Notes: a model not told the origin generated them from the sequence alone. 64,000 bases of DNA from Candidatus Aminicenantes bacterium (GCA_011772475.1 WVZK01000044.1:14727-78726), one strand, 5' to 3'. Shown: positions 34,746-56,442, numbered from the stretch's first letter. A program made the numbers and translations.

Positions 34746-34791
34746 CCATTCCTCCTTGCAGTAATAAACCTTATTCGCATCTGCATTTATA

Positions 34792-38706: not shown

Positions 38707-38709
38707 CTC

Positions 38710-39789: not shown

Positions 39790-39790
39790 C

Positions 39791-40216: not shown

Positions 40217-40217
40217 T

Positions 40218-42209: not shown

Positions 42210-42382
42210 TTACTAATTAGATAAGATTTATAGAGAGCGCATAAAGCGTCGTCAAGCCAAAGCTTAAATTATGCAGATACTGCTCTCAGATCAAAGAAGT
42301 ATCAGAGAATTTTTTAATCTATTAAGTACTATTATAAAGCAAGTGATGCATAATTTCTATAATTTTTATTAATTTTATAATT

Positions 42383-42411
42383 TTGACAATTTCTATACTT
42401 TTAATTATAAT
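42383..42411 (+). promoter_or_regulatory. consensus sigma-70 promoter of the octaheme-NrfC-NrfD operon
   Basis: TTGACA (42383-42388), a 17-nt spacer, then TATAAT (42406-42411). Confidence 0.65.
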
Positions 42412-42429
42412 TCTGAAAACATTATTAAA

Positions 42430-43209
42430 ATGAAAGATATTTCCTTCCTCGCGAAGTGGGCAAAAAAATTTTGGAAAAAAGTCCCTGACCAGGTAGTACG
42501 TCTTTCCATACCAATATTGATATTAATCATTGGCTTCATTGTCATGAGAAATCTTCTTGTTCCTTCTGACTTCGGCAAGTATGGACATTTCCGAGCTGCT
42601 GCAATTGACGAATTAGTATCACAGGAAATACAATACAGCGAGCATGAGATGTGTTTTGAGTGTCATGATGATGTCGTAAAAGCCAAGAACATGTCCTATC
42701 ACAGAGGTGTGGAGTGCGAGGTGTGCCATGGTCCCGCAGCAGCCCACATTGAAGACCCAGAAGGCAATCAACTTCCAGCCCCAAGAGAGAGAGGCTACTG
42801 TCCACTCTGCCATGAGTATCTTCCATCAAGACCTACTGGCTTTCCTCAGATTGTTTCAGAGTCACATAACCCATTTAGAGCTTGCGTCTCCTGTCATGAT
42901 GCTCATGACCCGAAACCGCCTACTGTGCCGAAGGAATGTGAGGCTTGTCATGCTGAGATTGCTCGGACCAAGGCTCTTTCTCATCATGTTTACATTTCGT
43001 GTATCAGATGTCACAAAACCCCTAAAGAGCACAATATACGCCCGAGAGCTCATCGGCCTGAGAAACCAAGCACGCGGGAGTTTTGTGGGGAATGTCACGA
43101 TGAGAAGGCACCGAGTGCCAAAGGAGTCCCTAGGGTGAACATGGAGACTCACGGCGAAAGATATGTGTGTTGGCAGTGTCATTATCCTCACTTACCAGAG
43201 GCGCATTAA
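42430..43209 (+). CDS. membrane-anchored octaheme cytochrome c (c3-family-like)
   Basis: 259 aa. TM helix LSIPILILIIGFIVM. Motifs are CFECH, CEVCH, CPLCH, CVSCH, CEACH, CIRCH, CGECH, CWQCH. Confidence 0.78.
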   Translation: MKDISFLAKWAKKFWKKVPDQVVRLSIPILILIIGFIVMRNLLVPSDFGKYGHFRAAAIDELVSQEIQYSEHEMCFECHDDVVKAKNMSYHRGVECEVCHGPAAAHIEDPEGNQLPAPRERGYCPLCHEYLPSRPTGFPQIVSESHNPFRACVSCHDAHDPKPPTVPKECEACHAEIARTKALSHHVYISCIRCHKTPKEHNIRPRAHRPEKPSTREFCGECHDEKAPSAKGVPRVNMETHGERYVCWQCHYPHLPEAH

Positions 43210-43983
43210 ATGAAGGAAGCAAATATCGAAAGAAGAGATTTTTTGAAAAGACTTATCGTCTCAGTTCTTTCTTTTTCATCGCCCGGGCTACTTAAGGCCC
43301 AAGAAAAAAGTAAGGAAAGTACGTCACTTTATGAGAAAGGTTATGATCCAGAAGAACACCTTTGGGGGATGGGAATAAGGATAAATAGATGCATCGGGTG
43401 CGGACGGTGTGCTGATGCCTGCAAGAGAGAAAATGATGTACCAAGACTGCCCTTTTTTTTCCGTACCTGGGTAGAACGCTATATTATCCTTGAGGGAGAT
43501 GAAGTTGTTGTGGATAGCCCCACCGGGGGAGTGGATGGCTTCAAAACCCATGTCCAGGAGAAAAAATTAGTCAGAAGCTTTTTTGTGCCTAAATTATGTA
43601 ACCAGTGCGATAAGCCTCCGTGTGTCCAGGTTTGTCCTGTTGGTGCGACCTACAAGACTGAAGATGGAGTTACTCTTGTTGATTCAGAGTATTGTATAGG
43701 ATGTCGGTACTGCATTCAGGCCTGCCCCTACGGAGCTCGTTTTATTCATCCCAGGACCCATACGGCTGAAAAGTGCACTTTTTGTTATCACCGGATTGTA
43801 AAGGGCTTAATCCCCGCCTGTGTTAAAGTGTGTCCCACCCAGGCGAGGGTATTCGGAGATACAAAAGGAAGGGCTAGTCCTCTCGTTAGATTCATGCGCA
43901 TGAATAAGATACGAGTCCTTAAACCTTATCTCAACACAGAGCCCAAGGTCTTTTATGCCGGACTTGATATGGAAGTAAAATAA
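43210..43983 (+). CDS. Tat-exported four-cluster 4Fe-4S ferredoxin subunit (NrfC/HybA/PsrB-like)
   Basis: 257 aa. Twin-arginine signal ERRDFLKRLIVSVLSF. Cys groups are CIGCGRCADAC, CNQCDKPPCVQVC, CIGCRYCIQAC and CTFCYHR...CVKVC. The start abuts the previous stop. Confidence 0.88.
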   Translation: MKEANIERRDFLKRLIVSVLSFSSPGLLKAQEKSKESTSLYEKGYDPEEHLWGMGIRINRCIGCGRCADACKRENDVPRLPFFFRTWVERYIILEGDEVVVDSPTGGVDGFKTHVQEKKLVRSFFVPKLCNQCDKPPCVQVCPVGATYKTEDGVTLVDSEYCIGCRYCIQACPYGARFIHPRTHTAEKCTFCYHRIVKGLIPACVKVCPTQARVFGDTKGRASPLVRFMRMNKIRVLKPYLNTEPKVFYAGLDMEVK

Positions 43984-43985
43984 GA

Positions 43986-45179
43986 ATGGAAGAAATCGCT
44001 CACCAATTAGCACCAATCCTTGAACAGATAACCGGATATATCTATCCGAATGAGATCGAATTGCACTGGCGTATCCTCATCGTTGTCTACCCTTATATTA
44101 CGGGACTCGTTGCTGGTGCCTTCATCCTCGCTTCGCTGGTAAAAGTATTCAATGTTAGAGAGGTTCAGCCGACCTATCGTCTTTCTCTTCTTACAGCTCT
44201 TGCCTTTTTAATAGTGGCCCCTTTGCCGCTTTTGGCGCATATCGGACACCCTGAAAAATCCCTGGAGATATTCCTGACCCCAAATTTTAGCTCTGCCATG
44301 GCAATGTTTGGATTCATATACGCCTGGTACCTCATGGCAGTTTTATTGCTTGAAATATGGTTTGACTACAGAAGAGACCTCATCATCTGGGCTAAGAATG
44401 AGAAGGGATTGATGAAGTGGATACACAGGATATTCACCTTGTTTTCCACAGACACTTCAGAAAGAGCAGTGCGCTTTGATAAAAGATCAATAAAAGCCAT
44501 AACAATAGTTGGAATTCCTTCCGCCTTTCTACTGCATGGATATGTGGGATTTATCTTTGGTTCTGTGAAGGCCAATCCCTGGTGGTCAAGCGTGCTCATG
44601 CCAATTGTGTTTCTTTTTTCGGCGATTGTATCAGGAATTGCCCTGGTATTACTCATCTACATGGTAGTGACTCTGGTGCGAGGAAAAGAGATAAATATGG
44701 CCTGTCTGGATAAACTCGCAGGCTATTTGTTTTATACGATGATTATTGATTTCTCCCTCGAAGCTTTAGATTTCATTCACCGATTGTATGAGTCAGAGGA
44801 ATCCATAGAAATACTCTCCCAGCTGATCTCAGGAAGATTATTTGTGAGCCTTATCGTTATCCAGCTCCTTCTTGGAATGATATTGCCTCTAGCCGGGCTT
44901 TCTTCAGTCAAATTATTCCGGGTGCCAGCCGAATTAAGAAGGCATATCTACTTTGTCTCAGCTTTACTTGTTCAAGTTGGTATTTTTACGACTAGATGGA
45001 ATGTCGTTATTGGAGGACAATTGTTCTCTAAAAGCTTTAGAGGTCTTACGGCTTATAAGATGTCTCTGGGCGGGGTAGAGGGACTACTCGTATCTTTGGG
45101 TTTTCTTATCCTTCCTTTCATAGTTCTGTATATTCTCGTTAAAATTTTCCCCCCTTGGCAAGAAGCCAAACAGCCCTGA
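43986..45179 (+). CDS. NrfD/PsrC-family integral membrane quinone-interacting subunit
   Basis: 397 aa, about 8-9 TM helices. HWRILIVVYPYITGLVAGAFILASL is the typical NrfD-family first helix. Confidence 0.82.
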   Translation: MEEIAHQLAPILEQITGYIYPNEIELHWRILIVVYPYITGLVAGAFILASLVKVFNVREVQPTYRLSLLTALAFLIVAPLPLLAHIGHPEKSLEIFLTPNFSSAMAMFGFIYAWYLMAVLLLEIWFDYRRDLIIWAKNEKGLMKWIHRIFTLFSTDTSERAVRFDKRSIKAITIVGIPSAFLLHGYVGFIFGSVKANPWWSSVLMPIVFLFSAIVSGIALVLLIYMVVTLVRGKEINMACLDKLAGYLFYTMIIDFSLEALDFIHRLYESEESIEILSQLISGRLFVSLIVIQLLLGMILPLAGLSSVKLFRVPAELRRHIYFVSALLVQVGIFTTRWNVVIGGQLFSKSFRGLTAYKMSLGGVEGLLVSLGFLILPFIVLYILVKIFPPWQEAKQP

Positions 45180-45302: not shown

Positions 45303-46121
45303 TTAGGCATAGCTGTGCAGGCCAGCCAGAAGATAATTCACGCCGAAATAGGTGAAGAGAGCAGCTAAGAAGCCAAGGACGGCAATATAGGCAGATCTGC
45401 GTCCTTTCCAGCCCATTACGATCCGGGTATGGAGGTAGAGAGCAAAGACAAACCAGGTTATCAGACTCCAAACTTCTTTGGGGTCCCAGCTCCAGTAGCT
45501 TCCCCAAGCGTAATAAGCCCATATCATGCCAAAAACGAGGCCCCCTAGAGTAAAGAGTGGAAAGCCGATGGCGATACATCTGTAGCTGATAGAATCGAGT
45601 TTTTCTGACGATATTCCCGTTTTCTTGGCCTTGCCTTTTTTTTCTTTTGAATCAGCCACTAAATACATGATGCTGGTGACAAAAGCCAAGGCAAAGAAAG
45701 CTTCGCCGAGGAGTGTGACCGAGACATGGAGCCAGAGCCAATAACTCTGGAGGGCAGGAACCAGGGGGGTTGCCTCTTTTGGCATCAACGGAGAAGAAGC
45801 TAAAGCCATGATGGCTATAACGACCAGCATAAAAAGGGCTCCTGCTTTTCGAATCTTGAATTTCCACTCGATAATGACATAGGCGAGAATAGCACTCCAT
45901 GCAAGGAAGGAAAGAGATTCATACATATTGGTGAAAGGTGCATGTCCGCTTTCCACAGTTCTCATAATAAGGGCAGCAGTATGGAGAAGCAGCCCGATGA
46001 ACGCTATGCTAAAGCCTGTTTTGGCCAGATTTTCTTTTTTTGAAAAGAAGTAAGAGAAGTAGAAAAACGCTGCTAAGAAATAGAATATGAAGGTTACGAG
46101 AAATAGGGTTGATTCGCTCAT
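45303..46121 (-). CDS. ccsA: System II cytochrome c biogenesis heme-handling protein CcsA/ResC
   Basis: 272 aa and polytopic. WWD (tryptophan-rich) motif WGSYWSWDPKEVWSLITW and conserved His residues. Confidence 0.9.
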   Translation of the reverse strand: MSESTLFLVTFIFYFLAAFFYFSYFFSKKENLAKTGFSIAFIGLLLHTAALIMRTVESGHAPFTNMYESLSFLAWSAILAYVIIEWKFKIRKAGALFMLVVIAIMALASSPLMPKEATPLVPALQSYWLWLHVSVTLLGEAFFALAFVTSIMYLVADSKEKKGKAKKTGISSEKLDSISYRCIAIGFPLFTLGGLVFGMIWAYYAWGSYWSWDPKEVWSLITWFVFALYLHTRIVMGWKGRRSAYIAVLGFLAALFTYFGVNYLLAGLHSYA

Positions 46122-47470
46122 TTTGATCTCCTTAGGGAAGTCATGATTTTCTCGAATTCAGATTGAAAGGCATCCCGGTTTTTGGAAGCGATTCCTCCTG
46201 CAGTGACTTCTGTTTTCCCGTGGCTCTCTTCCAGAATAACTTTAACCTCTCGAATAGGCCAGTAAAAAGCCAGGGCAAGTCCTAACATTAAAAAGCCGCA
46301 TCCAATCCAAATAATGTTAACTCCTGGGTCTTTAGATGCCTGGATGACAGAGAATTGACTGGACTTGAAATCACGAAGTTCTAGAGTCAAATCCATTTCC
46401 TTTTCTGAGTGAATACGGGCAAAATCGGGAAATTTGGCAAAGATCCAGCCTGAAAAAATTCTCTGTTCGTCTTGCCATCCTTCTATGAAAGCGGCTGGAT
46501 TGTTAGGTTCATTCGAGCGGGATGTAATCTCATTTTTATCGTTAATAATGAAGTCAGGTAGAAAATGGAGGGCAATAAGTTGAATATCATCGTCCCCAAG
46601 ACTGACTCTCTGCCCAACTTTGAACTCTAATTTCCTCAAGAATGATGGGTCCTTTCTTTTTTTAACCCAGATTTCCAAAGAAGGACTTTCCCAGTCCCAG
46701 CCATAGCCACTCTGGTAAAACGCGAAACCTTGGTAGGCCAGGGGATGGTTAACCTCGACAATTTTGCTGAGCTGAGGTTTCTCATTTTCGAGGACTGTTA
46801 GGGTGCTCTTCCAGTCTCTAACCCTTCCATCAGGATAGAATTCAGTTTCGAACTTATCCAGTCTTACCTGAAAGTCGGCCTTGGGGACCGGGAGAACTTG
46901 TCCTTCAAAAAGAGTCAAGTCCGCTTTGAATCCTCCCAGACCGCTGATGATTCCCCCTGCGAGTATGATGAGAAGGCCGAGATGGACAATATCTGACCCA
47001 AACAATCCCAGAGTCTTCTTTCGAGCCAGCAGGAAGCTTCTAGCTTCCTTTTTTTCCTCTTTCAGACGATAATGCCTGGCGGAGAACTCCCTTCCCAACT
47101 CTTCTCTAGTCCTGGCCAAATTCCAGTTTTTCCTGAATTTCTCCCTGATTTTTAAGGAATTGATGTTTTTTGTCTCGAATCGAAGCCTTGGCTGAAAAAC
47201 TCTTTTAAATTTCGGAGAAAGTCGATTCAAGGTACAGATGATGATATTTAAAGAAAAAAGGAAAAGAAGGCCATTGTACCACCAGGAATGGTAGAGGTTT
47301 GTGAACTGGAGGCGGATGAGAAGGCCGGCCAGCTGACCATAGCGAACAGCATATTCGGCAGCACTCCTTTGTTGAGGAATCAAGGTGCCCAGGATAGAGG
47401 CGCAAGTGATGATGATCAACAACACTATGGCTAATTTTACAGAGCTAAAAAATTTAATTAAAGATTTCAT
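46118..47470 (-). CDS. ccsB: System II cytochrome c biogenesis protein CcsB/ResB
   Basis: 450 aa. N-terminus FFSSVKLAIVLLIIITCASILGTLIPQ, a large periplasmic loop and a C-terminal TM. There is a 4-nt overlap with ccsA. Confidence 0.85.
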   Translation of the reverse strand: MKSLIKFFSSVKLAIVLLIIITCASILGTLIPQQRSAAEYAVRYGQLAGLLIRLQFTNLYHSWWYNGLLFLFSLNIIICTLNRLSPKFKRVFQPRLRFETKNINSLKIREKFRKNWNLARTREELGREFSARHYRLKEEKKEARSFLLARKKTLGLFGSDIVHLGLLIILAGGIISGLGGFKADLTLFEGQVLPVPKADFQVRLDKFETEFYPDGRVRDWKSTLTVLENEKPQLSKIVEVNHPLAYQGFAFYQSGYGWDWESPSLEIWVKKRKDPSFLRKLEFKVGQRVSLGDDDIQLIALHFLPDFIINDKNEITSRSNEPNNPAAFIEGWQDEQRIFSGWIFAKFPDFARIHSEKEMDLTLELRDFKSSQFSVIQASKDPGVNIIWIGCGFLMLGLALAFYWPIREVKVILEESHGKTEVTAGGIASKNRDAFQSEFEKIMTSLRRSK

Positions 47471-47490: not shown

Positions 47491-48786
47491 CTAAATTCTT
47501 CCAGATAATAATGAATTCATCTCGTTATTGTTACTGTATCTAATGTTGTTCTGCTGATGGTTTTTACGCATCTCTTTGGCCGTGGCCTTGATCACACCCA
47601 AGGAACGCTGCATCTCACTCCATCCGTACCAGAGAGCATAATCAGGATTAGCGTGGAATGTTCCCTGGAAAGTTCTCATCCGGTGTTCTAGAAACATGAC
47701 AAACAGTTCTTGTTCGATGGCTGTGGGAGCATCATGGAAGGTCAGCAAGTCAGGGAAAGGATAGGAATAGTTTTCGGGTTTGGTGAGGAGACCATCCTTG
47801 TATAATCCGGCTACTATGCGTATAGCTTCTGCCATGAGGTAGTCTGCTTCTTTGATCATCTGATCACCCTTATCCAGCTCATTCTTAGCAAAATTCAGAG
47901 AATGGCATTGATTACATGTCTTGAGCATCTTATCTCGTTCTTGTTGCCAGTCTTCCTGGGTAAGCCTGGCGAGATCTGCTGCCTTGACGATATCGAGCCT
48001 TGCAGTAGGATTACCCTCTGGATCCAGGACTCCAAGACCTTGAAGGATTGTTACTCGGTCAGCAGTCCATTGCTCATCTTCTGGCATAGGAAGCCTGACC
48101 GCTAGGAATCCCCAGGCAGTTCTCACAGCATGATTCCCTTTTTCCATATGACAGGTCTGGCAGGTTGGTGCGGCCACTGTTTCTGGAAGCGTCTTGTTCT
48201 GCTTCAATAAATATCGAACGCCATGTTTAGAGCCTGAATACATCTCCCATTGAGGATGGTCGAAACCCATATGGCAGGTCTGACAGGCTTGAGGCTGCTT
48301 AGCTTCCTTCACCGAGAAGATATGACGGGTATGGCAGGCATCACAGGAGGCAACTCCGAAACCTGCCCCATCTTTTTTCAGTTCTGTTATCTCTTCTTTG
48401 GTCTTCAACCCGATCTTATGGCATCCTCCACATCCTTTCATTCCTTCCATCATAGCCATTGGCTGCCAGTGGGCGGTGGGCATAGCTTTCATAGCTGCCC
48501 AGGCGAAGGCATGCTTGCCTTTCTTGAATTGGGCTACTTTCTCATCATGACATTCAGCGCAGGTCTCAGGCGTAGGAATCTGCACTTTGGCCACATCATA
48601 GGAGTCTTTATGAGCTTCTCCGTGGCAGACTGAACAGTCAACTTCATTCTGGCTGTGCTTGCTCAATTGCCAGTCGGTAACGATATTAGGAGTAACATCC
48701 TTGTGACACTTCACACACTCCTGGGCGAATGCTCCTGTACAGAAAGCAATGCTTAAAAGGATAACAGCCATAGTTTTGTGATTCAA
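47491..48786 (-). CDS. octaheme cytochrome c of the hydroxylamine oxidoreductase (HAO) family
   Basis: 431 aa. The TTG start at 48786 is 6 nt after AGGAGGTGA. Signal peptide present. Motifs are CVKCH, CSVCH, CAECH, CGGCH, CDACH, CQTCH, CQTCH, CNQCH. CQTCHMGFDHPQWEMYSGSKHG and FHANPDYALWYGW are HAO-family signatures. Confidence 0.85.
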   Translation of the reverse strand: MNHKTMAVILLSIAFCTGAFAQECVKCHKDVTPNIVTDWQLSKHSQNEVDCSVCHGEAHKDSYDVAKVQIPTPETCAECHDEKVAQFKKGKHAFAWAAMKAMPTAHWQPMAMMEGMKGCGGCHKIGLKTKEEITELKKDGAGFGVASCDACHTRHIFSVKEAKQPQACQTCHMGFDHPQWEMYSGSKHGVRYLLKQNKTLPETVAAPTCQTCHMEKGNHAVRTAWGFLAVRLPMPEDEQWTADRVTILQGLGVLDPEGNPTARLDIVKAADLARLTQEDWQQERDKMLKTCNQCHSLNFAKNELDKGDQMIKEADYLMAEAIRIVAGLYKDGLLTKPENYSYPFPDLLTFHDAPTAIEQELFVMFLEHRMRTFQGTFHANPDYALWYGWSEMQRSLGVIKATAKEMRKNHQQNNIRYSNNNEMNSLLSGRI

Positions 48787-49057: not shown

Positions 49058-49095
49058 AGGAAAAAAGAGAGAAGCAGTTAACTTCTCTCTTTTCT
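49058..49095 (-). terminator. Rho-independent terminator after the MtrB-like gene (hairpin readable on both strands)
   Basis: AGAGAGAAG (49066-49074) pairs with CTTCTCTCT (49082-49090) across a 7-nt loop. It is flanked by an A-run (49061-49065) and TTTCT. On the minus strand the hairpin is followed by TTTTTCC. Confidence 0.7.
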
Positions 49096-49139: not shown

Positions 49140-51254
49140 TCAGAATCTGTAGCCAAACCCAAAATAGAGAATGTGGTAATGTCCTGAGTCCTCATATCCT
49201 CCTGTAGCATGGATGACAAAGGCTTTATCTTTATAGTCTTCGTACTTCCATTTTCCAAACACCGAGACATTCTTCATGAGAAAATAGTCAGCTCCTGCCG
49301 AAATCCTGTAATGGGCAATATCCTGGTCACTGAGATCGGCCAGACCTGATGTGTCCTCTTCTATACCCTCAATTCCAGTTGAAACCCAATCTGATTTTCC
49401 TATAGTCATTGAAAAGTCACCGAATATGGAGAAATTGTCAGAGAGTCTGTAATCAAGAGCTACCAAGAAAACATTCACATTTTTGTTGTAAGGAACATCT
49501 TTATCTTCTCGGGCTATCCTTTGGCCTTGGTACTCGTATTGTGTCCCGTAGATGAGGCTGTTCACGATCTTCTCGTTTAGGTAAGTGTAGGCCGCAGTGA
49601 TTGAAACTTTGTTTGTCAGAGCATACCATAAACTAAAAACAATGTTATGTCTTTTTTGAGACGAGTCTATCTGGTCGTTTTTGCCTGAATTATAGAAGTA
49701 GTTCGCAGTGAGAGCAAATCTGTTAGCCGGGATTACCGAAACGCCTGCTGAGACTAGATGAATATCAGTGTACAAGCTGGTCATGAAACGTTCCGTGGTA
49801 GGATCAACAGGATTTTCTTCAGCCGAGTGGGGCACACCAAGGGGATTTTCTATGCTTTTTCCTTTGTAACGGAGAAAACCCTTTATTTTTGGAGAGGGAT
49901 AGAAAGTAACTCCCACACGATAAGTGGTGGTTTTCATCTCCTCGAGGTACTTATCCATGAGGTCTTTTTCTTCTTCTTCTACTTCTGAAGCCCAACTAAA
50001 ATTCCTTTTCAGGCTGTTGTAGTCTAATCCGGCTCTTAGGTGGATTTTCTGCTTGGGAATCCTGTAGGAAGCATCAGCCCCTATAGCGTATCCATCTGTG
50101 GATAAGTGGTTGGCCACAAGGGTACTTGTGTCAAAAGCATAGTCAGGATCTAGGTTGTTTTCATACTTGTTGTTTCCATATCTCAGCGTGAGGTTAAAGC
50201 CTTTACCCAAGAGGGCTCGAAACCGGGAGAGAAAATTCTTGATATCAGCTTCTCCGTTGTTATTCTTGTTCTTGACTTTGGCAATTGTGTAGCTTCCAAA
50301 GAGTGAAGCATTCTTTACCGCATCAACTTTAGCTTTGAGAGTATCAGCATTCTTCTCAGAATCCGGAATATGGGCAAATTCTTGAGTTCCTTCGAAAGGG
50401 AAACTGCCGTAAGGATTTGTATACTCATGGTATAAAGGGTTGGCTTTATTTTCAAAGCTCCGCCCCAGGTGAGAGTAACTTAAGGCTACACCCTTGGTTT
50501 TGAACTCAGCTCCTATGATGAAATCCCTGGTTCTCTGATCGATGGCTTGAGTTTGGGCCTCGATATGGCACACTGTGCACATCTCGAAGGTTCTTGCCTG
50601 TTGGGAACCATTTTCATGGACATATCTGACTTGGGATTTAATTTTTAAGTTGGGGATCGAGGGGATAACGAGATCTGTTTTGTTGATTATTTCGGTTCGG
50701 GTTGTAGAATAGACATCGTCAGGATTGCTGTCTACAAAAGGGAATTCATGTTGAGCCTCGGGATCTGGATCCACATTCGTTAAGGGGTCATGATCCAGGC
50801 GGTGGATGAATCGACTAGATTGGAATTCAGTTCTTACGATTCTTCCTATGTCAAGCCCAGCGTAATAGGCCTGTTCATCCTTGTGGTAGGACTTGCCCGA
50901 GAGGTTGAACAAGCTATTATCTCCCAAGAATCCCTTCAGTCCAAAACCAGCTCCAGCAGAGGAACCAACAGTGGAAAACTCTGCTGCTCTTCCGCCAGAA
51001 AGCCCTGAGACATTTAACGGCAAGTCGCTTTCATCAGTCAATAGAAATCTTTGGAAGACGGAGACGTGTCCTGAAATATCAGTTTTTGTCTCTTTGGCTG
51101 CTCCTTCTGGAGCTAAGGCAAAGCTCTTGAGCGCGGATTTGACCAATTCGCTCGGTGAGTGGACTGGATTATCGTTCTTTTTTGATTCAGCAAAGCTCGA
51201 AGAGAGGCTGATTATGCCGATGATGGCTACGATTACGATTATTTTTTTTCTCAT
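49140..51254 (-). CDS. MtrB/PioB-like large outer-membrane beta-barrel (porin partner of the decaheme cytochrome), containing one CXXCH
   Basis: 704 aa with a signal peptide. It has long alternating-strand architecture and a C-terminal aromatic (FGFGYRF). Its size matches MtrB/PioB/MtoB, and it lies 9 nt downstream of the decaheme gene. CTVCH is at residues 226-230 (50579-50565). Confidence 0.65.
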   Translation of the reverse strand: MRKKIIVIVAIIGIISLSSSFAESKKNDNPVHSPSELVKSALKSFALAPEGAAKETKTDISGHVSVFQRFLLTDESDLPLNVSGLSGGRAAEFSTVGSSAGAGFGLKGFLGDNSLFNLSGKSYHKDEQAYYAGLDIGRIVRTEFQSSRFIHRLDHDPLTNVDPDPEAQHEFPFVDSNPDDVYSTTRTEIINKTDLVIPSIPNLKIKSQVRYVHENGSQQARTFEMCTVCHIEAQTQAIDQRTRDFIIGAEFKTKGVALSYSHLGRSFENKANPLYHEYTNPYGSFPFEGTQEFAHIPDSEKNADTLKAKVDAVKNASLFGSYTIAKVKNKNNNGEADIKNFLSRFRALLGKGFNLTLRYGNNKYENNLDPDYAFDTSTLVANHLSTDGYAIGADASYRIPKQKIHLRAGLDYNSLKRNFSWASEVEEEEKDLMDKYLEEMKTTTYRVGVTFYPSPKIKGFLRYKGKSIENPLGVPHSAEENPVDPTTERFMTSLYTDIHLVSAGVSVIPANRFALTANYFYNSGKNDQIDSSQKRHNIVFSLWYALTNKVSITAAYTYLNEKIVNSLIYGTQYEYQGQRIAREDKDVPYNKNVNVFLVALDYRLSDNFSIFGDFSMTIGKSDWVSTGIEGIEEDTSGLADLSDQDIAHYRISAGADYFLMKNVSVFGKWKYEDYKDKAFVIHATGGYEDSGHYHILYFGFGYRF

Positions 51255-51263
51255 CTTGGTCTC

Positions 51264-52166
51264 CTATCTCATGAATCTTCCGGCGCCTGATAACGACGGA
51301 TTGTCGCTCCCGTGAATCTGGGAATGACAGTGAGTGCACCTGGTAAAGAAGCTGACGTTCCATGTTTGAAGACTCAGAGCGGGATGGCGTCGATCTTCAT
51401 GGCTAGTGTGGCACTGCATGCAGAGGAATGGTTCAGTCTGACGCTGGAGATGGTTGGCGATGCTTCCGTGCGAGTCGTGGCAAATAGCGCAGCTTTCAAC
51501 AACAGGAGCGTGCTCAAAAGTGAAGGGTCCCTGTTTTTCAGCATGACAGCTGAGACAGAGCTCGTTAAGAGTTTCAGCTTTGATGTTTCTTTCTCCTCCC
51601 CCGTGAGAATCATGGCAGGAAGAGCAGTTCATTTTTTTCTCGCGAATGGGGTGATGCGAGGGAAAATTTATTTGAGCTCTCTTGTCAGCGTGGCACTTGA
51701 AGCAGAGGTCAGGATCGTTCTTGGCTAATTGATTCTTGGCAGCGGTGTGAGAGCGATGACAGCTCGTGCAGGAGACACCGCTTATGTCATGGGAACTTCC
51801 AGGCCAGTTCATCTGCATTCCGCTTCGGTGACACTTCAGGCAAATCTCCCCAGCTTCGGTAGGGGAGAGTTCCTTCAGGCGGATAATCTTTTCCGGGTCT
51901 TCCTCTTCCACGTGCAGGCTTCCTGGACCATGGCAAGCTTCGCAGCCAGCGATTTTCCCCTTGAGTTCAAAATCAGCCAGTCTTCCGTGGATTGTTTTCT
52001 TGAAGGCTTCTCCGACTTCCTCATGACATTCCATACAGGTCTCTGAACCAACATATTCTCCTTCGGAAGCCGGCTCTACAGCGCAAAGAGAGGAATACAG
52101 GAAGAAAATACCAGTAAGAACAAAAGCGCAGGTGATGAGTCCAATCAGTAAACTGCTTTTTTTCAT
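51264..52166 (-). CDS. periplasmic decaheme cytochrome c, MtrA/DmsE/PioA/MtoA family-like
   Basis: The probable start is ATG 52166 (MKKSSLLIGLITCAF...) after AAGGAG; the listed ORF extends to 52244. There are 10 CXXCH motifs: CMECH, CEACH, CLKCH, CTSCH, CFKCH, CSSCH, CLSCH, CAICH, CMQCH, CTHCH. About 300 aa. The C-terminal CTHCHSQIHGSDNPS is typical of the family. Confidence 0.8.
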   Translation of the reverse strand: MKKSSLLIGLITCAFVLTGIFFLYSSLCAVEPASEGEYVGSETCMECHEEVGEAFKKTIHGRLADFELKGKIAGCEACHGPGSLHVEEEDPEKIIRLKELSPTEAGEICLKCHRSGMQMNWPGSSHDISGVSCTSCHRSHTAAKNQLAKNDPDLCFKCHADKRAQINFPSHHPIREKKMNCSSCHDSHGGGERNIKAETLNELCLSCHAEKQGPFTFEHAPVVESCAICHDSHGSIANHLQRQTEPFLCMQCHTSHEDRRHPALSLQTWNVSFFTRCTHCHSQIHGSDNPSLSGAGRFMR

Positions 52167-52261
52167 CTTCTTCTCCTTAGTGAAAATTTCCGATAAATTG
52201 AATGCACCAATACCTTGTTTTATTATTTTCTGTTTGATTCCCACCTCCTTTGTTCATTCTC

Positions 52262-52618
52262 TTAATCTAAAGCCTCTTTGACAAGCGTTTTCATCTGCTC
52301 AGCGTTGAAAGGTTTTTCGACGACTGAAAAGACGTTTAAAGTGCTCAATTGAGGCTCTATTTGGTATTTCGGGTGTGCCGATAAAATTACAATTTTCGTC
52401 GACGGCTGGATTTTATTGACTTCTTTTAACATATCAAGACCAATTTCTTCATCTATTTCTATGTCCGCAAAGATGAGATGATAAGCATCGTTTGAGGCCC
52501 GGCTCAAAGCATCCTTGGTCGTGGCCACAGTATCAACTTCGTATCCTTCTTGAGCGAATATTTCCCTTAAAGACCATCGAATAAGCTTGTCGTCATCAAC
52601 GACTAGAATTTTATACAT
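52262..52618 (-). CDS. single-domain response regulator (CheY-like receiver)
   Basis: 118 aa. KILVVDDD...FADIEI...ILSAHPK receiver pattern, with no output domain. Confidence 0.85.
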   Translation of the reverse strand: MYKILVVDDDKLIRWSLREIFAQEGYEVDTVATTKDALSRASNDAYHLIFADIEIDEEIGLDMLKEVNKIQPSTKIVILSAHPKYQIEPQLSTLNVFSVVEKPFNAEQMKTLVKEALD

Positions 52619-52639
52619 TTCAATCCACGGAAGAAGATA

Positions 52640-52654
52640 GCAATTTTTGTGCCA
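52640..52654 (-). promoter_or_regulatory. sigma-54 (-24/-12) promoter of the receiver / MtrA-like / MtrB-like operon
   Basis: The minus strand reads TGGCAC-AAAAA-TTGCT, an exact consensus match, about 20 nt upstream of ATG 52618. Confidence 0.7.
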
Positions 52655-52744: not shown

Positions 52745-52758
52745 GGGTGATTTCACCC
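52745..52758. promoter_or_regulatory. candidate enhancer (UAS) palindrome for the NtrC-type activator
   Basis: GGGTGA-TT-TCACCC is a perfect 6-2-6 palindrome about 99 bp upstream of the -24 element at 52654. A related site lies at 35035-35048. Confidence 0.45.
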
Positions 52759-52842
52759 TCTAATGGGCTATATTTCCCATAATTATTAGGGGTTTACTAT
52801 TATTTTTTGAAGAGATTTTGTGAGAAGGAGTGGAGGGGGGAT

Positions 52843-54234
52843 TTACTCTGAAAAATGAAAGCGTTCGGGCGTGATATTGAATTTTTTAATCTTATAACGC
52901 AGAACATCTCGAGTAATGTTCAGTAATCTTGCGGCCTTGGTTTTATTCCCGTTTGTTTTTTTCAAGGCTTGAATCATCAGTTTTTGTTCCATATCGTACA
53001 GAGATAAGTTTTGGTCAGAAGTTTCGTCTAAGGAGCCTTCTGGAGATGAGAAAGAATCTCCGTTTAGATGAATGGGCAGATATTTGGCAGTGATTGAAGA
53101 ATTTTCTTCGAAGATCATGGCTCGTTCCACGGCATTTTTTAGCTCTCTGACATTTCCGGGCCAGTCGTATTCCAGAAAAAGCTTTTCTGTCTGCTTGTCC
53201 AATCCTTTAATGCTCTTTCTGAATTTTTTATCATAATGGAAAATGAAATGATTAGCTAAGGGCAGGATATCTTCCCTTCTCTCCCTTAAAGGCGGAATGT
53301 AGACAGGACAGACATTCAATCGATAAAACAAATCTCTCCTGAATTTTTCTTCTCTTGAGGCAAGCTCAATATCCTGGTTAGTGGCCGCTATGACTCGGAT
53401 ATCCACTTCGATATCTTTCAATCCGCCTACCCTCTTAAAAGAATGGATTTCCAGAAACCTCAACAGCTTGGCTTGGAGATGAAGGTTTAGAGTGCTTATT
53501 TCATCCAGGAACAAGGTTCCTCCGTCAGCCAGTTCGACTAGCCCTTTCTTCTGTGCCTTGGCGTCAGTAAAAGCTCCTTTTTCGTAGCCGAAGAGCTCGC
53601 TTTCCAGAAGGTTATCAGGAATGGCTGAACAGTTTATGGCGAGATAAGAGGCGTTTCTACGCCGGCTGAGATGATGAATGGCTTGAGCCAAGAGGTCCTT
53701 TCCAGTACCACTTTCTCCCTGAAGAAGAATGATAGAAGCTTCGCTTTCGGCAATCTTCTTGACCATTTCCAGGATCTGTTTCATTGCTTTTGAGTTGGTT
53801 ATAATCTGATCAGCATCAAATCTATTTTGTTCCTTTTCTTTGTAATAGGCGATTTCTTGTTTCAGAGAGGCAGCCTCCAGGGCGTTTTTTACAGTGTTCT
53901 GAAGCTTTGTGTAATCAATTGGCTTGGTGATGAAATCATAGGCTCCTCGGCGCATGGCCGTCACTGCATCTTCTATGACTCCGAAGCCGGTCATCATGAT
54001 GACCGGAAGCTCTGGCTGGGCCTTCTTTAATTCCATCAATAAATCCGTGCCTTTCTTATCCGGGAGTTTGACATCGAGCATCACGAGATCAGGTGTTTCT
54101 TCTTCTGCCAGGCGCAGGCCTTGAGCTCCGTTTTCAGCAGTAGAAGCTTCAAGGTTCCATTTGTTTAATTTCTGGCTGAGTGTCCAGCGGATGAGTTTTT
54201 CATCATCGACGATTAAGATCTTTTTTTTGCGCAT
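52843..54234 (-). CDS. sigma-54-dependent response regulator (NtrC family: REC + AAA+ + Fis-type HTH)
   Basis: 463 aa. ILIVDDE...MLDVKLPD receiver, Walker A GESGTGKD, ESELFGYEKGAFTDA (GAFTGA-type loop) and a C-terminal HTH (NKTKAARLLNITRDVLRYKIKK). Confidence 0.92.
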   Translation of the reverse strand: MRKKKILIVDDEKLIRWTLSQKLNKWNLEASTAENGAQGLRLAEEETPDLVMLDVKLPDKKGTDLLMELKKAQPELPVIMMTGFGVIEDAVTAMRRGAYDFITKPIDYTKLQNTVKNALEAASLKQEIAYYKEKEQNRFDADQIITNSKAMKQILEMVKKIAESEASIILLQGESGTGKDLLAQAIHHLSRRRNASYLAINCSAIPDNLLESELFGYEKGAFTDAKAQKKGLVELADGGTLFLDEISTLNLHLQAKLLRFLEIHSFKRVGGLKDIEVDIRVIAATNQDIELASREEKFRRDLFYRLNVCPVYIPPLRERREDILPLANHFIFHYDKKFRKSIKGLDKQTEKLFLEYDWPGNVRELKNAVERAMIFEENSSITAKYLPIHLNGDSFSSPEGSLDETSDQNLSLYDMEQKLMIQALKKTNGNKTKAARLLNITRDVLRYKIKKFNITPERFHFSE

Positions 54235-54236
54235 CC

Positions 54237-55718
54237 TTAATCTCCTTGTTGTAAAACCGGAAGTCGGATAAGAAAAGTGGTGCCTTTCCCTTCCTTGCTT
54301 TTCACTTGAATGGAACCTTGGTGGGCAGCAGTAATTTTCTTGCAGATGGAAAGACCGAGACCAGTGCCTCTGCTCTTGGTAGTGAAAAAAGGATTAAATA
54401 TCTGAGACAAGTGGTCTTTTTTTATCCCTTTCCCGTTGTCTTCAAATATAATTTCTAACTCTTTTTCATTCCTTTTGAGGAGCTTGATATCGATTTGACC
54501 TTTGTTATCTATGGCCGAAATACTGTTCAGCATGAGATTCAGCATGAGCTCTTGAATCTTGTCCGCATCTAGACGGGCTAGGGTGTTGTTAGCCAGTTTC
54601 TGAAAATGAAAGATGATATCTTTGCTTTTTTTTTGAGGTTGGGCGAGTTTGATGGCATTTTCTACACATTCGTTAGGATTAACAAGACTGAAGCTCATCT
54701 CTTTTGGCTTGGCATAGCTGAGGAGGTCCTGGATAACTTTATGCATTTTTTCGATTTGAAGCAGAATTTCATTAAATATTTCTTTCTTAGGGTCAGCGGG
54801 ATCGGTTTTTTGACCGATGATTTCCAAGGCTCCTTTCATTCCGGCGATGGGGTTTTTCATCTCATGAGCTAGCCCGGCAGCTAGCTCTCCTATGGAAGCC
54901 AGATGTTCAGCCTTTTCCATCTGCTGGCTATGCAGGTGTTCTATTTTTTGGTTAGCTTCGCGGAGCTTTTTCACCATGGCATTGAAGCTTTCAGCTAGGT
55001 TTCCGATTTCATCGTGTTTGACGACCGGAAATTGAATGTTCAAGTCTCCCTCCTGGACGGTCTTCATGTTGCCTTTTAATCGGGAAATGGGGCGATTGAC
55101 CAACTTTTCGAATAATCGGAGGATGATGAAGATGAGGATGGATATCGATACCAAGCCTATAAGAATACCCTTGAGCTGGCTTTTTTTAAGAAGAATGGCA
55201 GCAGCTGTATAATCGACGTTGATTTCTAAGATACCATTGATTTTCGCCTGAGGAGAATGGCAGGCATAGCATTCTTGTCTGTTTTCGATAAGACGAAAAT
55301 TCTGTATGGTTGATTTTGGCTTAAGGAAGTAGATATTAGATCTGGTTCCGTTCGAAAAAAGTTCTTTCAGTTTGTTTTGAATACTAGCTTCAGAGGAGCT
55401 CCCGATTTCATTCTCGTGAGAAGAGCGAAGTATCTTTCCTTCAGCAGAGATAATACGAATTTTTTTAATATAGCTGGAAGAGGCTGTTTGGCTGATGATA
55501 TCTTGAACTTCCTCTGGCTTTCCCTCTTTCATGGCCTGGAAAAGGCTGTTTTCGATCATCAAGCCTGCAACCTCAGCTTTTTGTCGGCTCACAGAGTGGA
55601 TGATGTTCCTCTGGCCTCTTAGATAGAGAACAATCAAGACAAGAGTTGTTATGATTCCGATGACTAACACATGGAGAATGACCTTATTCCTCAGACTCCA
55701 CTGCTTTAAGCTCTTCAT
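54237..55718 (-). CDS. sensor histidine kinase with a periplasmic c-type-heme motif, HAMP, HisKA and HATPase domains
   Basis: 493 aa. TM1 is VILHVLVIGIITTLVLIVLYL and TM2 is GILIGLVSISILIFIILRLF. CYACH (residues 150-154, 55271-55257) sits in the ~135-aa periplasmic loop. H-box is HEMKNPIAGM. G-boxes are present (GTGLGLSICKKI). Confidence 0.88.
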   Translation of the reverse strand: MKSLKQWSLRNKVILHVLVIGIITTLVLIVLYLRGQRNIIHSVSRQKAEVAGLMIENSLFQAMKEGKPEEVQDIISQTASSSYIKKIRIISAEGKILRSSHENEIGSSSEASIQNKLKELFSNGTRSNIYFLKPKSTIQNFRLIENRQECYACHSPQAKINGILEINVDYTAAAILLKKSQLKGILIGLVSISILIFIILRLFEKLVNRPISRLKGNMKTVQEGDLNIQFPVVKHDEIGNLAESFNAMVKKLREANQKIEHLHSQQMEKAEHLASIGELAAGLAHEMKNPIAGMKGALEIIGQKTDPADPKKEIFNEILLQIEKMHKVIQDLLSYAKPKEMSFSLVNPNECVENAIKLAQPQKKSKDIIFHFQKLANNTLARLDADKIQELMLNLMLNSISAIDNKGQIDIKLLKRNEKELEIIFEDNGKGIKKDHLSQIFNPFFTTKSRGTGLGLSICKKITAAHQGSIQVKSKEGKGTTFLIRLPVLQQGD

Positions 55719-55983: not shown

Positions 55984-56442
55984 CTAAGCTCTGGAAGCAG
56001 ACTTCTTTTTCGCCTGTCGATTTTTTTTCTTTTGGATTTCTATAAGGTCTTGGAGAGTTATTCCGTCGAAATAGCTTTTCAACATATTGGTGGCCTCTTT
56101 CCAGACTTCAAAAGTAGCACAGATAGGAATGCGGTTACAATAATCATTATCCTCAATGCAGTCTACCAAACAGCAGGAGCCTTCTAAAGCATGGAGAATT
56201 TCACTCAGTCTAATTTCAGAAGGAGCACGGGATAAAGTGTAACCTCCTCCTGCGCCTCGAATGCTTTTTACGAGCCTGGCAATTTTAAGGGGGATAATGA
56301 TCTGTTCTAGATAGCGAATTGATATTTCTTCTTCATCAGAGATGCTCTTGAGAATAACAGAATGATTTCCGTTATTATAATTTTGAGCAAGATTGAGCAT
56401 AAGGCGACTCCCATATCTTCCCTTAGTGGAAAGCCTTATCAT
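55984..56442 (-). CDS. Rrf2-family transcriptional regulator (IscR/NsrR-like, Cys-rich C-terminal half)
   Basis: 152 aa. MIRLSTKGRYGSRLMLNLA winged-helix start, GGGYTLSR, and cysteines in GSCCLVDCIEDNDYCNRIPIC that could ligate an Fe-S cluster. Confidence 0.85.
   Translation of the reverse strand: MIRLSTKGRYGSRLMLNLAQNYNNGNHSVILKSISDEEEISIRYLEQIIIPLKIARLVKSIRGAGGGYTLSRAPSEIRLSEILHALEGSCCLVDCIEDNDYCNRIPICATFEVWKEATNMLKSYFDGITLQDLIEIQKKKNRQAKKKSASRA

What the first reader, a model, noticed from the sequence alone, without database searches (positions are those of the whole stretch)
49140..52654. Sigma-54-driven CheY-like / MtrA-like decaheme / MtrB-like porin operon: a two-component porin-cytochrome conduit without an extracellular MtrC/OmcA partner
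An exact sigma-54 promoter (minus strand TGGCAC-AAAAA-TTGCT, 52654-52640) precedes three genes. They are a stand-alone receiver protein, a ~300-aa decaheme cytochrome with the MtrA/DmsE/PioA/MtoA layout, and, 9 nt later, a 704-aa beta-barrel of MtrB/PioB size. A clean terminator follows at 49058-49095. No MtrC/OmcA-type lipoprotein cytochrome is encoded in the operon. That resembles the PioAB/MtoAB arrangement associated with electron uptake or Fe(II) oxidation rather than the Shewanella MtrCAB reductase. I do not recognise a CheY-like gene as the first cistron of such an operon from described systems.
Basis: partly seen in the sequence, partly recalled or inferred. Interest (0 to 1): 0.8.

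Follow-up and report, generated by a model that had tools for sequence, protein, structure and literature searches.

The report
OmcKL-type outer-membrane electron conduit operon

Summary
On the minus strand there is an exact sigma-54 promoter (52654-52639), a 118-aa receiver-only gene, a 10-heme cytochrome, a 704-aa barrel 9 nt later, and a hairpin/U-run terminator (about 49094-49062).

The reading [quoted passage not shown] is supported. The cytochrome passes the DmsE/MtrA family cut-off and matches MtrA of structure 6R2Q (E=1e-50). The barrel models as 26 strands, and its best structural match is MtrB.

It is not a PioAB/MtoAB relative in any closer sense. The pair belongs to the catalogued GSU2203/GSU2204 family, called the "OmcKL conduit" in the literature. 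I found the pair adjacent in all 34 genome loci examined.

It is kept as C-Xn-CH in at least 90% of 141 relatives. Strand topology places it at the extracellular tip of a long hairpin.

The receiver-first, sigma-54 arrangement is real but limited to close Aminicenantaceae relatives (five loci including the window). It sits beside an NtrC-type activator and a kinase with a periplasmic CxxCH. A second promoter in the window carries the same GGG-N8-CCC palindrome pair.

Verdict: new member of a known, experimentally uncharacterised kind. Moderate interest.

The parts
54237..55718 (-). Sensor histidine kinase (493 aa) with two predicted membrane helices, then HAMP, HisKA and HATPase domains. A CxxCH motif (C150, C153, H154) lies in the predicted periplasmic loop.
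   Evidence: Pfam domains. The CxxCH is invariant in 4 orthologues. Same position in the gene order in L001, L037 and L040.
52843..54234 (-). NtrC-type sigma-54-dependent response regulator (receiver + AAA+ Sigma54_activat + HTH_8). Presumed activator of the operon.
   Evidence: Pfam Sigma54_activat E=9e-67, Response_reg and HTH_8. Conserved directly upstream of the receiver gene in L001, L037 and L040.
52745..52780 (-). Two GGG-N8-CCC palindromes with centres 20 bp apart (ATGGGAAATATAGCCCAT 52780-52763; GGGTGAAATCACCC 52758-52745), about 100-120 bp upstream of the promoter. Putative activator binding sites.
   Evidence: The core bases (GGG, AAAT, CCC) are invariant in the alignment of the window with L001, L002, L037 and L040. 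The same pair with the same spacing lies upstream of the window's other sigma-54 promoter. The pattern gives 6 hits against 1.2 expected.
52639..52654 (-). Sigma-54 (-24/-12) promoter TGGCAC-AAAAA-TTGCT.
   Evidence: Exact consensus: 2 in the window against 0.03 expected. TGGCA[CT]-N5-TTGC is conserved at the same place in L001, L002, L037 and L040.
52262..52618 (-). Stand-alone receiver (CheY-like) protein, 118 aa; first cistron.
   Evidence: Response_reg E=2e-22 and no output domain. It is 27% identical to the receiver domain of the adjacent activator. Orthologues sit in the same position only in L001, L002, L037 and L040.
51264..52166 (-). Periplasmic, membrane-spanning decaheme c-type cytochrome (OmcK/MtrA-like), 300 aa from ATG 52166 (alternative GTG start at 52244).
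   Evidence: 10 CXXCH. NF041028 355 bits (cut-off 325) and TIGR03508 253 bits (cut-off 192). MtrA 6r2q_A E=1e-50.
49140..51254 (-). Outer-membrane 26-strand barrel, 704 aa, of the GSU2204/OmcL family with an MtrB-like fold.
   Evidence: NF041027 E=2.6e-79. AlphaFold2 pLDDT 89.3, pTM 0.84, 26 strands. Foldseek best hit is 6r2q_B. 937 related 50%-identity clusters.
50565..50579 (-). Codons for the barrel's heme-binding motif C226-T-V-C229-H230, at the turn between long strands 7 and 8.
   Evidence: The only two Cys in the protein. C226, C229 and H230 are each at least 90% conserved in 141 relatives, as C-X2-CH in 80 and C-Xn-CH (n=3-31) in most others. Strand parity places it on the extracellular side.
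49062..49094 (-). Intrinsic terminator (14-bp stem, 5-nt loop, U-run).
   Evidence: RNA fold -21.3 kcal/mol, z=-2.3.
45303..47470 (-). ResB (47470-46118) and CcsB (46121-45303): system II cytochrome c maturation genes. Probable accessory genes, in a separate transcription unit.
   Evidence: Pfam ResB E=2e-81; TIGR03144 CcsB 275 bits (cut-off 188). They neighbour the pair in L001, L006, L013, L037 and L038.

Best explanation
The operon encodes a two-protein trans-outer-membrane electron conduit of the GSU2203/GSU2204 (OmcK/OmcL) family.

How it most likely works: a 300-aa MtrA-like decaheme cytochrome is threaded through a 26-strand MtrB-fold barrel, so that a chain of ten hemes crosses the outer membrane. 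The barrel very probably carries an eleventh, covalently bound c-type heme at C226/C229/H230. This site sits at the tip of a long hairpin that, by strand topology, projects from the extracellular rim. I infer that this heme lies near the outermost heme of the decaheme and serves as, or contributes to, the surface electron-exchange site. That would explain why no MtrC/OmcA-type partner is encoded with the pair.

Electrons would reach the conduit from quinol-linked modules encoded elsewhere in the window: Qrc-like and NrfCD-like complexes, Rieske/cytochrome b units, and a NapC-fused 17-heme protein. The direction of flow (export to minerals, humics or a partner cell, or uptake) cannot be read from sequence.

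Regulation: transcription starts at a sigma-54 promoter. I infer that it is activated by the adjacent NtrC-type regulator bound to two GGG-N8-CCC palindromes, under control of a histidine kinase with a periplasmic c-heme motif, which suggests redox sensing. The receiver-only first cistron is induced by the same promoter. I infer, with low confidence, that it acts as a competing phosphoacceptor (negative feedback) or branches the signal.

Shown: gene content, family assignments, fold, motif conservation, promoter and palindrome conservation, synteny.
Inferred: heme occupancy and position, the activator-site pairing, the receiver's role, the physiological substrate.
For: Family and fold:
- Decaheme: NF041028 355 bits (cut-off 325), TIGR03508 253 bits (cut-off 192); MtrA 6r2q_A E=1e-50.
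- Barrel: NF041027 E=2.6e-79 is its only NCBIfam hit. All 68 sampled relatives hit NF041027; 38 of 68 also hit Pfam MtrB_PioB and 19 of 68 hit TIGR03509.
- AlphaFold2 model: pLDDT 89.3, 26 strands. Foldseek best hit is MtrB 6r2q_B, E=2.3e-20, TM 0.67/0.72; the next hits are at E=1e-9 with TM below 0.45.

Pairing:
- Cytochrome followed by barrel in all 34 genome loci from Aminicenantes, Acidobacteriota, Planctomycetota and others.

Barrel heme:
- C226, C229 and H230 are among the most conserved columns of 141 relatives (133, 139 and 139 of 141).
- The spacer between the two Cys varies from 2 to 31 residues, as expected for an exposed turn.
- Every even-to-odd strand turn is 2-6 residues (periplasmic side). 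Most odd-to-even connections are long loops. This puts residues 226-228 on the extracellular side.
- The lipid-facing hydrophobic alternation in strands 7 and 8 covers only residues 203-211 and 245-253. Residues 213-244 are polar (read from the sequence).

Regulation:
- Exact promoter, 0.03 expected.
- The promoter and both palindromes are conserved in relatives.
- An identical palindrome pair with 20-bp spacing lies upstream of the second sigma-54 promoter.
- The activator and the heme-motif kinase are adjacent and syntenic in relatives.

Literature:
- GSU2203 and GSU2204 were up-regulated on hematite and magnetite (PMC4070692).
- An 'OmcKL' conduit was proposed and found highly expressed in HotSeep-1, a sulfate-reducing partner of methane-oxidising archaea (PMC10553843).
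- In MtrCAB only heme A10 is exposed at the surface, and MtrAB alone can reduce soluble Fe(III) (PMC7198977).
Against: - The barrel scores below the NF041027 curated cut-off (267.6 against 350). It has no direct hit to TIGR03509 or PF11854. A profile of the family does not find MtrB among PDB sequences. Relatedness to MtrB therefore rests on fold and on transitive HMM hits.
- No experiment on any family member shows heme in the barrel.
- The model has no heme, and its confidence dips around the motif (block 221-230, pLDDT 80).
- I could not read model coordinates, so the distance to the decaheme's terminal heme is unknown.
- A heme-loaded loop would have to pass through the membrane during barrel assembly.
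- Other large multiheme cytochromes lie in the window (13-heme at 35239-37302; octaheme at 48786-47491) and next to the pair in other loci. Any of them could be an unlinked surface partner.
- The receiver's role is pure inference.
Confidence: 0.72

Rival explanations
1. It is a PioAB/MtoAB-type conduit dedicated to electron uptake or Fe(II) oxidation.
For: - Two-gene layout with no MtrC, like pioAB and mtoAB.
- Homologues of the same family were proposed to take up electrons during interspecies electron transfer in HotSeep-1 (PMC10553843).
Against: - The barrel does not hit TIGR03509 or PF11854 directly, and the pair falls in the separate GSU2203/GSU2204 models.
- No PioC-, MtoD- or CymA-type gene is in the operon.
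- Geobacter orthologues are induced on Fe(III) oxides, which is outward flow (PMC4070692).
- Gene layout does not determine direction.
Confidence: 0.12
2. It is an ordinary MtrAB-like core whose extracellular cytochrome or reductase partner is encoded elsewhere. The barrel CXXCH is structural, periplasmic, or not loaded with heme.
For: - Many loci carry large multiheme cytochromes close to the pair: 11- to 19-heme proteins in L003, L005 and L020-L024.
- The window has a 13-heme protein with c7-type repeats and an octaheme directly downstream of the barrel.
- In Desulfobacterota an mtrC can lie away from mtrAB (PMC12133095).
Against: - None of the window's cytochromes I scanned hits an MtrC/OmcA family model.
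- The neighbouring cytochromes differ between loci, whereas the C-Xn-CH motif is nearly universal.
- The octaheme is missing from L001 and lies beyond a terminator.
- The 17-heme neighbour is NapC-fused, so it is an inner-membrane protein.
Confidence: 0.2
3. The sigma-54 promoter drives only the receiver gene. The cytochrome and barrel are transcribed separately and constitutively, so this is a regulatory gene lying next to a conduit by chance.
For: - A 95-nt gap separates the receiver gene from the cytochrome start.
- A weak sigma-70-like match lies at 52284-52256.
- Relatives such as L039 express the pair without any receiver or activator nearby.
Against: - No terminator-like structure is in the gap.
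- The gap shrinks to 7 nt in L002 and 26 nt in L040.
- The gene order is fixed in all five loci of the subclade.
- Sigma-54-like motifs also lie directly upstream of the cytochrome gene in several Acidobacteriota loci. The enrichment is weak: 0.48 against 0.19 per kb.
Confidence: 0.08

Closest known systems
GSU2203/GSU2204 of Geobacter sulfurreducens (OmcK/OmcL; the 'OmcKL conduit'; NCBIfam NF041028 and NF041027)
   Same: A decaheme cytochrome gene is followed directly by a large barrel gene that carries one CXXCH. The window's cytochrome passes the family cut-off and the barrel's only NCBIfam hit is this family. No third cytochrome gene is part of the unit.
   Different: - The window's barrel scores below the curated cut-off.
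- It is a non-selenocysteine form. Many Acidobacteriota members have an in-frame TGA at the position aligned to about aa 570.
- It comes from Aminicenantes.
- It sits behind a sigma-54 promoter with a receiver-only first cistron.
- Published text called OmcK extracellular and noted the lack of a periplasmic cytochrome (PMC10553843). Here the cytochrome is clearly MtrA-like, so the missing piece is the surface partner.
MtrCAB of Shewanella (structure 6R2Q)
   Same: A decaheme homologous to MtrA (E=1e-50). A 26-strand barrel whose best fold match is MtrB. Adjacent genes.
   Different: - No MtrC/OmcA lipoprotein cytochrome.
- Sequence similarity of the barrel to MtrB is undetectable directly.
- The barrel has a conserved heme motif. 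From my own knowledge MtrB lacks one and has only an N-terminal CXXC.
- Sigma-54 control.
PioAB / MtoAB Fe(II)-oxidation conduits
   Same: A two-component cytochrome plus barrel layout, without a surface decaheme.
   Different: A different branch of the MtrB/PioB superfamily. There are no PioC, MtoD or CymA genes, and there is a heme motif in the barrel. The direction of flow is unknown.
Cyc2 / Cyc572 fused cytochrome-porins
   Same: An outer-membrane barrel protein that itself carries one CXXCH.
   Different: Cyc2 has an N-terminal heme domain on a barrel of about 16-17 strands and no separate multiheme partner (PMC10654088). Here the motif is internal, between strands 7 and 8 of a 26-strand barrel that pairs with a decaheme.
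NtrB/NtrC-type two-component control of sigma-54 promoters
   Same: A kinase, a receiver-AAA+-HTH activator, a -24/-12 promoter, and paired upstream palindromes about 100-250 bp away.
   Different: The kinase has a periplasmic CxxCH. The target is a cytochrome conduit. The first gene of the target operon is an extra receiver-only protein.

Membership tests
GSU2203 family decaheme cytochrome (NF041028) | Whole-protein score above the curated cut-off (325 bits) | tested here: met
   355 bits, E=3.5e-106
DmsE/MtrA family decaheme (TIGR03508) | Ten CXXCH motifs and a score above the cut-off (192.2 bits) | tested here: met
   10 CXXCH; 253.2 bits; MtrA 6r2q_A E=1e-50
GSU2204 family CXXCH-containing (seleno)protein (NF041027) | Score above the curated cut-off (350 bits) | tested here: not met
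   267.6 bits, E=2.6e-79. It is the only NCBIfam hit and covers residues 86-565. The protein is clearly homologous but falls below the equivalog threshold.
GSU2204 family CXXCH-containing (seleno)protein (NF041027) | A single conserved heme-binding motif in the barrel protein | tested here: met
   CTVCH at aa 226-230, aligned with the family's C-Xn-CH column, which is at least 90% conserved
GSU2204 family CXXCH-containing (seleno)protein (NF041027) | Gene lies directly downstream of a GSU2203-type decaheme gene | tested here: met
   9-nt gap in the window; same order in 34 of 34 genome loci
GSU2204 family CXXCH-containing (seleno)protein (NF041027) | Selenocysteine (in-frame UGA); optional, present in some members | tested here: not met
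   The window ORF is uninterrupted and has Thr at the aligned site. Twelve Acidobacteriota loci have TGA there, with 54-143 aa of read-through (138-143 aa in eleven of them).
MtrB/PioB outer-membrane protein family (TIGR03509 / PF11854) | Match to the family HMMs | tested here: not met
   No hit for the window protein, even at E<=10 in Pfam. Among 68 relatives, 38 hit PF11854 and 19 hit TIGR03509, so the link is at superfamily level only.
MtrB/PioB outer-membrane protein family (TIGR03509 / PF11854) | A 26-strand barrel with an MtrB-like fold | tested here: met
   AlphaFold2 gives 26 strands at pLDDT 89.3. Foldseek best hit is 6r2q_B, E=2.3e-20, TM 0.67/0.72.
MtrCAB three-component conduit | An MtrC/OmcA-type surface decaheme lipoprotein encoded with mtrAB | tested here: not met
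   The operon has only three cistrons. None of the window's multiheme cytochromes I scanned hits an MtrC/OmcA family model.
PioAB/MtoAB Fe(II)-oxidation conduit | Barrel and cytochrome cluster with PioB/MtoB and PioA/MtoA; accessory PioC, MtoD or CymA genes present | tested here: inconclusive
   No accessory genes are in the operon. The barrel is assigned to a different HMM family.
Cyc2-type fused cytochrome-porin | An N-terminal monoheme domain fused to a barrel of about 16-17 strands, with no partner cytochrome | tested here: not met
   The motif lies between strands 7 and 8 of a 26-strand barrel, and a decaheme partner is present.
Sigma-54-dependent promoter with enhancer-binding activator | GG at -24 and GC at -12 with consensus spacing, an adjacent AAA+ activator, and upstream activator sites | tested here: met
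   Exact consensus, 0.03 expected. The Sigma54_activat protein is adjacent. Paired palindromes are conserved and occur again at a second promoter. Presence of rpoN in the genome cannot be tested from this window.

The most novel reading that the evidence does not exclude
The GSU2204/OmcL-type barrel is a true cytochrome-porin hybrid. Its covalently bound heme sits on the extracellular rim next to the last heme of the threaded decaheme. It acts as a built-in eleventh heme that exchanges electrons with minerals, humic substances or partner cells. This would make the two-gene unit a self-sufficient conduit that needs no MtrC/OmcA-type surface cytochrome. In this Aminicenantes lineage the unit would be switched on by a periplasmic heme-sensing kinase through sigma-54.
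Probability: 0.35. Interest if true: 0.7.

Novelty: new member of a known kind. Interest (0 to 1): 0.45.

Why it matters
The family is large: 937 clusters at 50% identity. It spans Acidobacteriota, Planctomycetota, Desulfobacterota and Aminicenantes, phyla that dominate sediments, peat and the subsurface, yet no member has been characterised.

If the barrel's heme is real and surface-exposed, it would be a second design for crossing the outer membrane, a decaheme plus a heme-bearing barrel. It would also explain the many "MtrAB without MtrC" gene pairs that genome surveys currently file as possible Fe(II) oxidisers.

For Aminicenantes, usually described as fermenters, the operon sits among quinol-linked cytochrome complexes. 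That points to respiration with extracellular electron acceptors or donors.

The regulatory circuit is compact and testable: a heme-motif kinase, an NtrC-type activator, paired palindromes at two sigma-54 promoters, and an extra receiver.

Tried and rejected
- Searching a profile of the barrel family against PDB sequences found only generic OmpC-like similarity at the C-terminus and no MtrB. The link to MtrB had to come from fold comparison and transitive HMM hits.
- The metagenome scan with the barrel returned only two truncated loci lacking the upstream region. I used exact-protein look-ups for synteny instead.
I repeated it with 68 sequences.
- A literature search for 'OmcL' mostly returned the OrthoMCL algorithm and unrelated genes.
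- I considered the receiver-only protein as a recent duplicate of the activator's receiver domain. At only 27% identity I do not claim this.
- I considered the octaheme downstream of the barrel as the missing surface partner. I rejected it as a conserved component because it lies beyond the terminator and is absent from L001.
- I considered the 17-heme neighbour as a surface partner. I rejected it because it has an N-terminal NapC/NirT membrane-anchor module.
- I considered selenocysteine in the window's barrel. It is absent.
A fused-chain prediction would not have returned distances, so I did not run one.

Full report
**1. What is in the sequence**

The minus strand of 55.7-49.0 kb reads as one regulatory and structural unit.
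- A histidine kinase (55718-54237) and an NtrC-type activator with a Sigma54_activat domain (54234-52843) come first.
- A 224-nt intergenic region follows.
- Then come a 118-aa receiver-only gene (52618-52262), a decaheme cytochrome gene (ATG 52166 to 51264) and a 704-aa gene (51254-49140).

The promoter TGGCACAAAAATTGCT is at 52654-52639. It is one of only two exact TGGCAC-N5-TTGCW matches in the window, against 0.03 expected.

The cytochrome has exactly ten CXXCH motifs. The ORF lister starts it at GTG 52244. ATG 52166, with an AAGGAG ribosome site and a signal peptide, gives 300 aa, as in relatives. The barrel gene starts 9 nt after the cytochrome stop.

A 14-bp hairpin followed by a U-run lies at about 49094-49062. 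Nothing terminator-like separates the receiver gene from the cytochrome gene. In relatives that gap is as short as 7 nt.

**2. Source organism and neighbourhood**

The barrel is 100% identical to a protein of a Candidatus Aminicenantes metagenome-assembled genome. The window as a whole is a respiratory island:
- a Qrc-like complex (9975-15086);
- two cytochrome b units, one next to a Rieske protein;
- a NapC-fused 17-heme protein (42209-40218);
- an 8-heme / FeS / NrfD module (42430-45179);
- 9-heme and 13-heme cytochromes;
- ResB/CcsB heme-attachment genes (47470-45303);
- a hydroxylamine-oxidoreductase-like octaheme (48786-47491).

None of the cytochromes I scanned hits an MtrC/OmcA family model.

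**3. The cytochrome**

It scores 253 bits on TIGR03508 (DmsE family, cut-off 192) and 355 bits on NF041028 (GSU2203 family, cut-off 325). NrfB-type models score 30-45 bits. Against solved structures the best match is chain A of 6R2Q, which is MtrA, at E=1e-50. NrfB follows at 2e-8.

**4. The barrel**

Its only NCBIfam hit is NF041027, 'GSU2204 family CXXCH-containing (seleno)protein'. The E-value is 2.6e-79 and the score is 267.6 bits, below the 350-bit equivalog cut-off. It does not hit TIGR03509, and it does not hit Pfam MtrB_PioB even at E<=10.

A profile search of 1.84 billion representatives finds 937 related clusters, 313 of them at E<=1e-30. Of 68 sampled relatives, all 68 hit NF041027, 38 hit PF11854 and 19 hit TIGR03509. 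The family is therefore a distinct branch of the MtrB/PioB superfamily, and the window's copy is too diverged to register directly.

An AlphaFold2 model built on 141 sequences has pLDDT 89.3 and pTM 0.84 and shows 26 long strands. Its best PDB fold match is MtrB (6r2q_B, E=2.3e-20, TM 0.67/0.72). The next matches are 22-strand TonB-dependent receptors at E=1e-9 with TM below 0.45.

**5.

The protein has only two cysteines, and they form CTVCH at residues 226-230.

In the 141-sequence alignment, C226, C229 and H230 are present in 133, 139 and 139 sequences. That places them among the most conserved columns, alongside G216, Q219, R417 and Y260. Eighty sequences have C-X2-CH. Most of the rest have C-Xn-CH with n from 3 to 31. 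A Cys...Cys-His triad kept across such a variable spacer argues for covalent heme attachment at a turn that tolerates insertions.

A second signature, HRLDHDPL (aa 151-158), supplies two conserved histidines (118 of 141 each). All but a handful of sequences keep at least one of them. They are candidate distal ligands; this is inference.

Topology follows from the model's strand list. Every even-to-odd connection is 2-6 residues. Most odd-to-even connections are long, up to 30 residues. The N-terminus follows a signal peptide, and the C-terminus is a GFGYRF beta-signal ending in Phe. By the established rule for outer-membrane barrels (short turns periplasmic, long loops external), residues 226-228 are the external turn between strand 7 (203-225) and strand 8 (229-253).

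In those two strands, the alternating hydrophobic pattern expected of lipid-facing residues covers only 203-211 and 245-253. Residues 213-244 are polar (read from the sequence). The hairpin should therefore project well beyond the bilayer.

In the Shewanella complex, MtrB extends far above the membrane and only heme A10 of MtrA is exposed at the surface, 8 A from MtrC heme C5 (PMC7198977). A heme on the external rim of this barrel would sit where MtrC docks. I could not read model coordinates, so this placement is inferred, not measured.

**6. The gene pair is the conserved unit**

In all 34 genome loci recovered with the family signature, a DmsE-type multiheme gene directly precedes the barrel gene. 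The loci come from Aminicenantes, Acidobacteriota, Planctomycetota and a Myxococcales-labelled genome. Neighbouring cytochromes vary from locus to locus.

In the literature GSU2203 is OmcK. GSU2203 and GSU2204 are induced on hematite and magnetite (PMC4070692). An 'OmcKL' porin:cytochrome conduit was proposed in HotSeep-1, a sulfate-reducing partner of methane-oxidising archaea, where it is expressed four-fold above OetABI (PMC10553843). [quoted passage not shown] I found no experimental study of the barrel or its heme.

**7. Regulation**

The promoter is conserved as TGGCA[CT]-N5-TTGC in L001, L002, L037 and L040. The alignment also shows two conserved GGG-N8-CCC palindromes, at 52780-52763 and 52758-52745, with centres 20 bp apart.

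The window's only other exact sigma-54 promoter (34806-34791) lies upstream of a four-heme c554-like gene. It has the same pair of palindromes (35068-35055 and 35048-35035), again 20 bp apart. The pattern gives 6 hits against 1.2 expected, and 4 of the 6 fall in these two regions. This fits one activator, presumably the adjacent NtrC-type protein, serving two promoters.

The kinase has an invariant CxxCH in its predicted periplasmic loop in four orthologues, which suggests a c-heme redox sensor.

The full order Rrf2 - kinase - activator - receiver - cytochrome - barrel is shared by L037 and L040. L001 shows kinase - activator - receiver - cytochrome - barrel, and L002 shows the receiver, cytochrome and barrel behind the promoter. 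In these loci the barrel is at least 68% identical to the window's.

More distant Aminicenantes loci lack it: L003/L005 at 45% identity, L006, L013, and L039 at 63%. So do all the other phyla. The receiver-first layout is therefore a lineage-specific addition, not a family trait.

Sigma-54-like motifs or NtrC-like genes recur upstream of the pair in some Acidobacteriota loci, but the enrichment is weak: 0.48 against 0.19 per kb.

The receiver has an intact phosphorylation pocket and is 27% identical to the activator's receiver domain. A role as a phosphate sink that gives negative feedback is plausible but untested.

**8. Verdict**

However, the system is an Aminicenantes member of the already catalogued GSU2203/GSU2204 (OmcKL) family. 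It is not a PioAB/MtoAB-like novelty, and the two-gene layout says nothing about direction of electron flow.

The most interesting feature is the conserved heme site on the predicted external hairpin of the barrel. It offers a concrete and testable reason for the missing MtrC. The regulatory circuit is a tidy lineage-specific addition.

Scores: interest 0.45; novelty: new member of a known kind. The most novel reading, a self-sufficient conduit with a built-in terminal heme, has probability about 0.35.

Noticed in passing
window 34791-35068 (minus strand): A second exact sigma-54 promoter (TGGCACATATTTTGCT, 34806-34791) lies upstream of a four-heme c554-like cytochrome gene (34745-34221). It carries the same pair of GGG-N8-CCC palindromes (35068-35055 and 35048-35035, centres 20 bp apart) as the conduit promoter, so one activator probably serves both. 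A 13-heme cytochrome gene (35239-37302) diverges from the same intergenic region.
   Followed up: partly
window 54237-55718 (minus strand), residues 150-154: The sensor kinase has a CxxCH in its predicted periplasmic loop. It is invariant in four orthologues (window, L001, L037, L040), which suggests a c-heme-based redox sensor.
   Followed up: partly
L007-L010, L017-L019, L024-L028 (barrel genes): Acidobacteriota barrel homologues have an in-frame TGA in a conserved G-[TGA]-A-[AG]-G-[VI]-T context, followed by 138-143 aa of in-frame sequence in eleven loci (54 aa in L027). These are the selenocysteine forms implied by the NCBIfam name. The site aligns to about aa 570 of the window's barrel, at the predicted external tip of hairpin 21-22. 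The window has Thr there.
   Followed up: partly
alignment A2 (141 barrel relatives), columns of window residues 226-230: The spacer of the barrel's heme motif varies widely. It is C-X2-CH in 80 sequences and C-Xn-CH with n=3-31 in most others, largely among the members lacking a plain CXXCH. From my own knowledge, long spacers such as CX15CH in MccA need dedicated heme lyases. I did not check whether these loci encode one.
   Followed up: no
window 47491-48786 (minus strand): An octaheme cytochrome (431 aa) with the hydroxylamine-oxidoreductase-like Multi-haem_cyto domain lies just downstream of the conduit terminator. ResB and CcsB follow it. It is present in L037, L038 and L040 but absent from L001. 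Function unknown.
   Followed up: partly
window 9975-21689 and 37441-45179: The window is dense in respiratory modules:
- a Qrc-like complex (QrcA/B/C-like plus an NrfD-type subunit, 9975-15086);
- an ExtP/ExtQ-like cytochrome b (19155-20456);
- a Rieske protein plus cytochrome b6-like pair (40216-38710) next to a NapC-fused 17-heme protein (42209-40218);
- an 8-heme / FeS / NrfD module (42430-45179).
Together they suggest several quinol-to-periplasm routes in an organism from a phylum usually described as fermentative.
   Followed up: partly
window 55984-56442 (minus strand): An Rrf2-family regulator lies just upstream of the kinase. It is conserved in the same position in L037 and L040.
   Followed up: no
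window 26446-27594 (minus strand): A five-heme protein has a weak match to the ExtKL multiheme (seleno)protein family (NF040886, 71 bits, below cut-off).
   Followed up: no
L037 6090-6990: The decaheme gene is intact (10 CXXCH in one frame). The source's gene caller split it into small spurious ORFs, so automated annotations of this family may under-report the cytochrome partner.
   Followed up: yes
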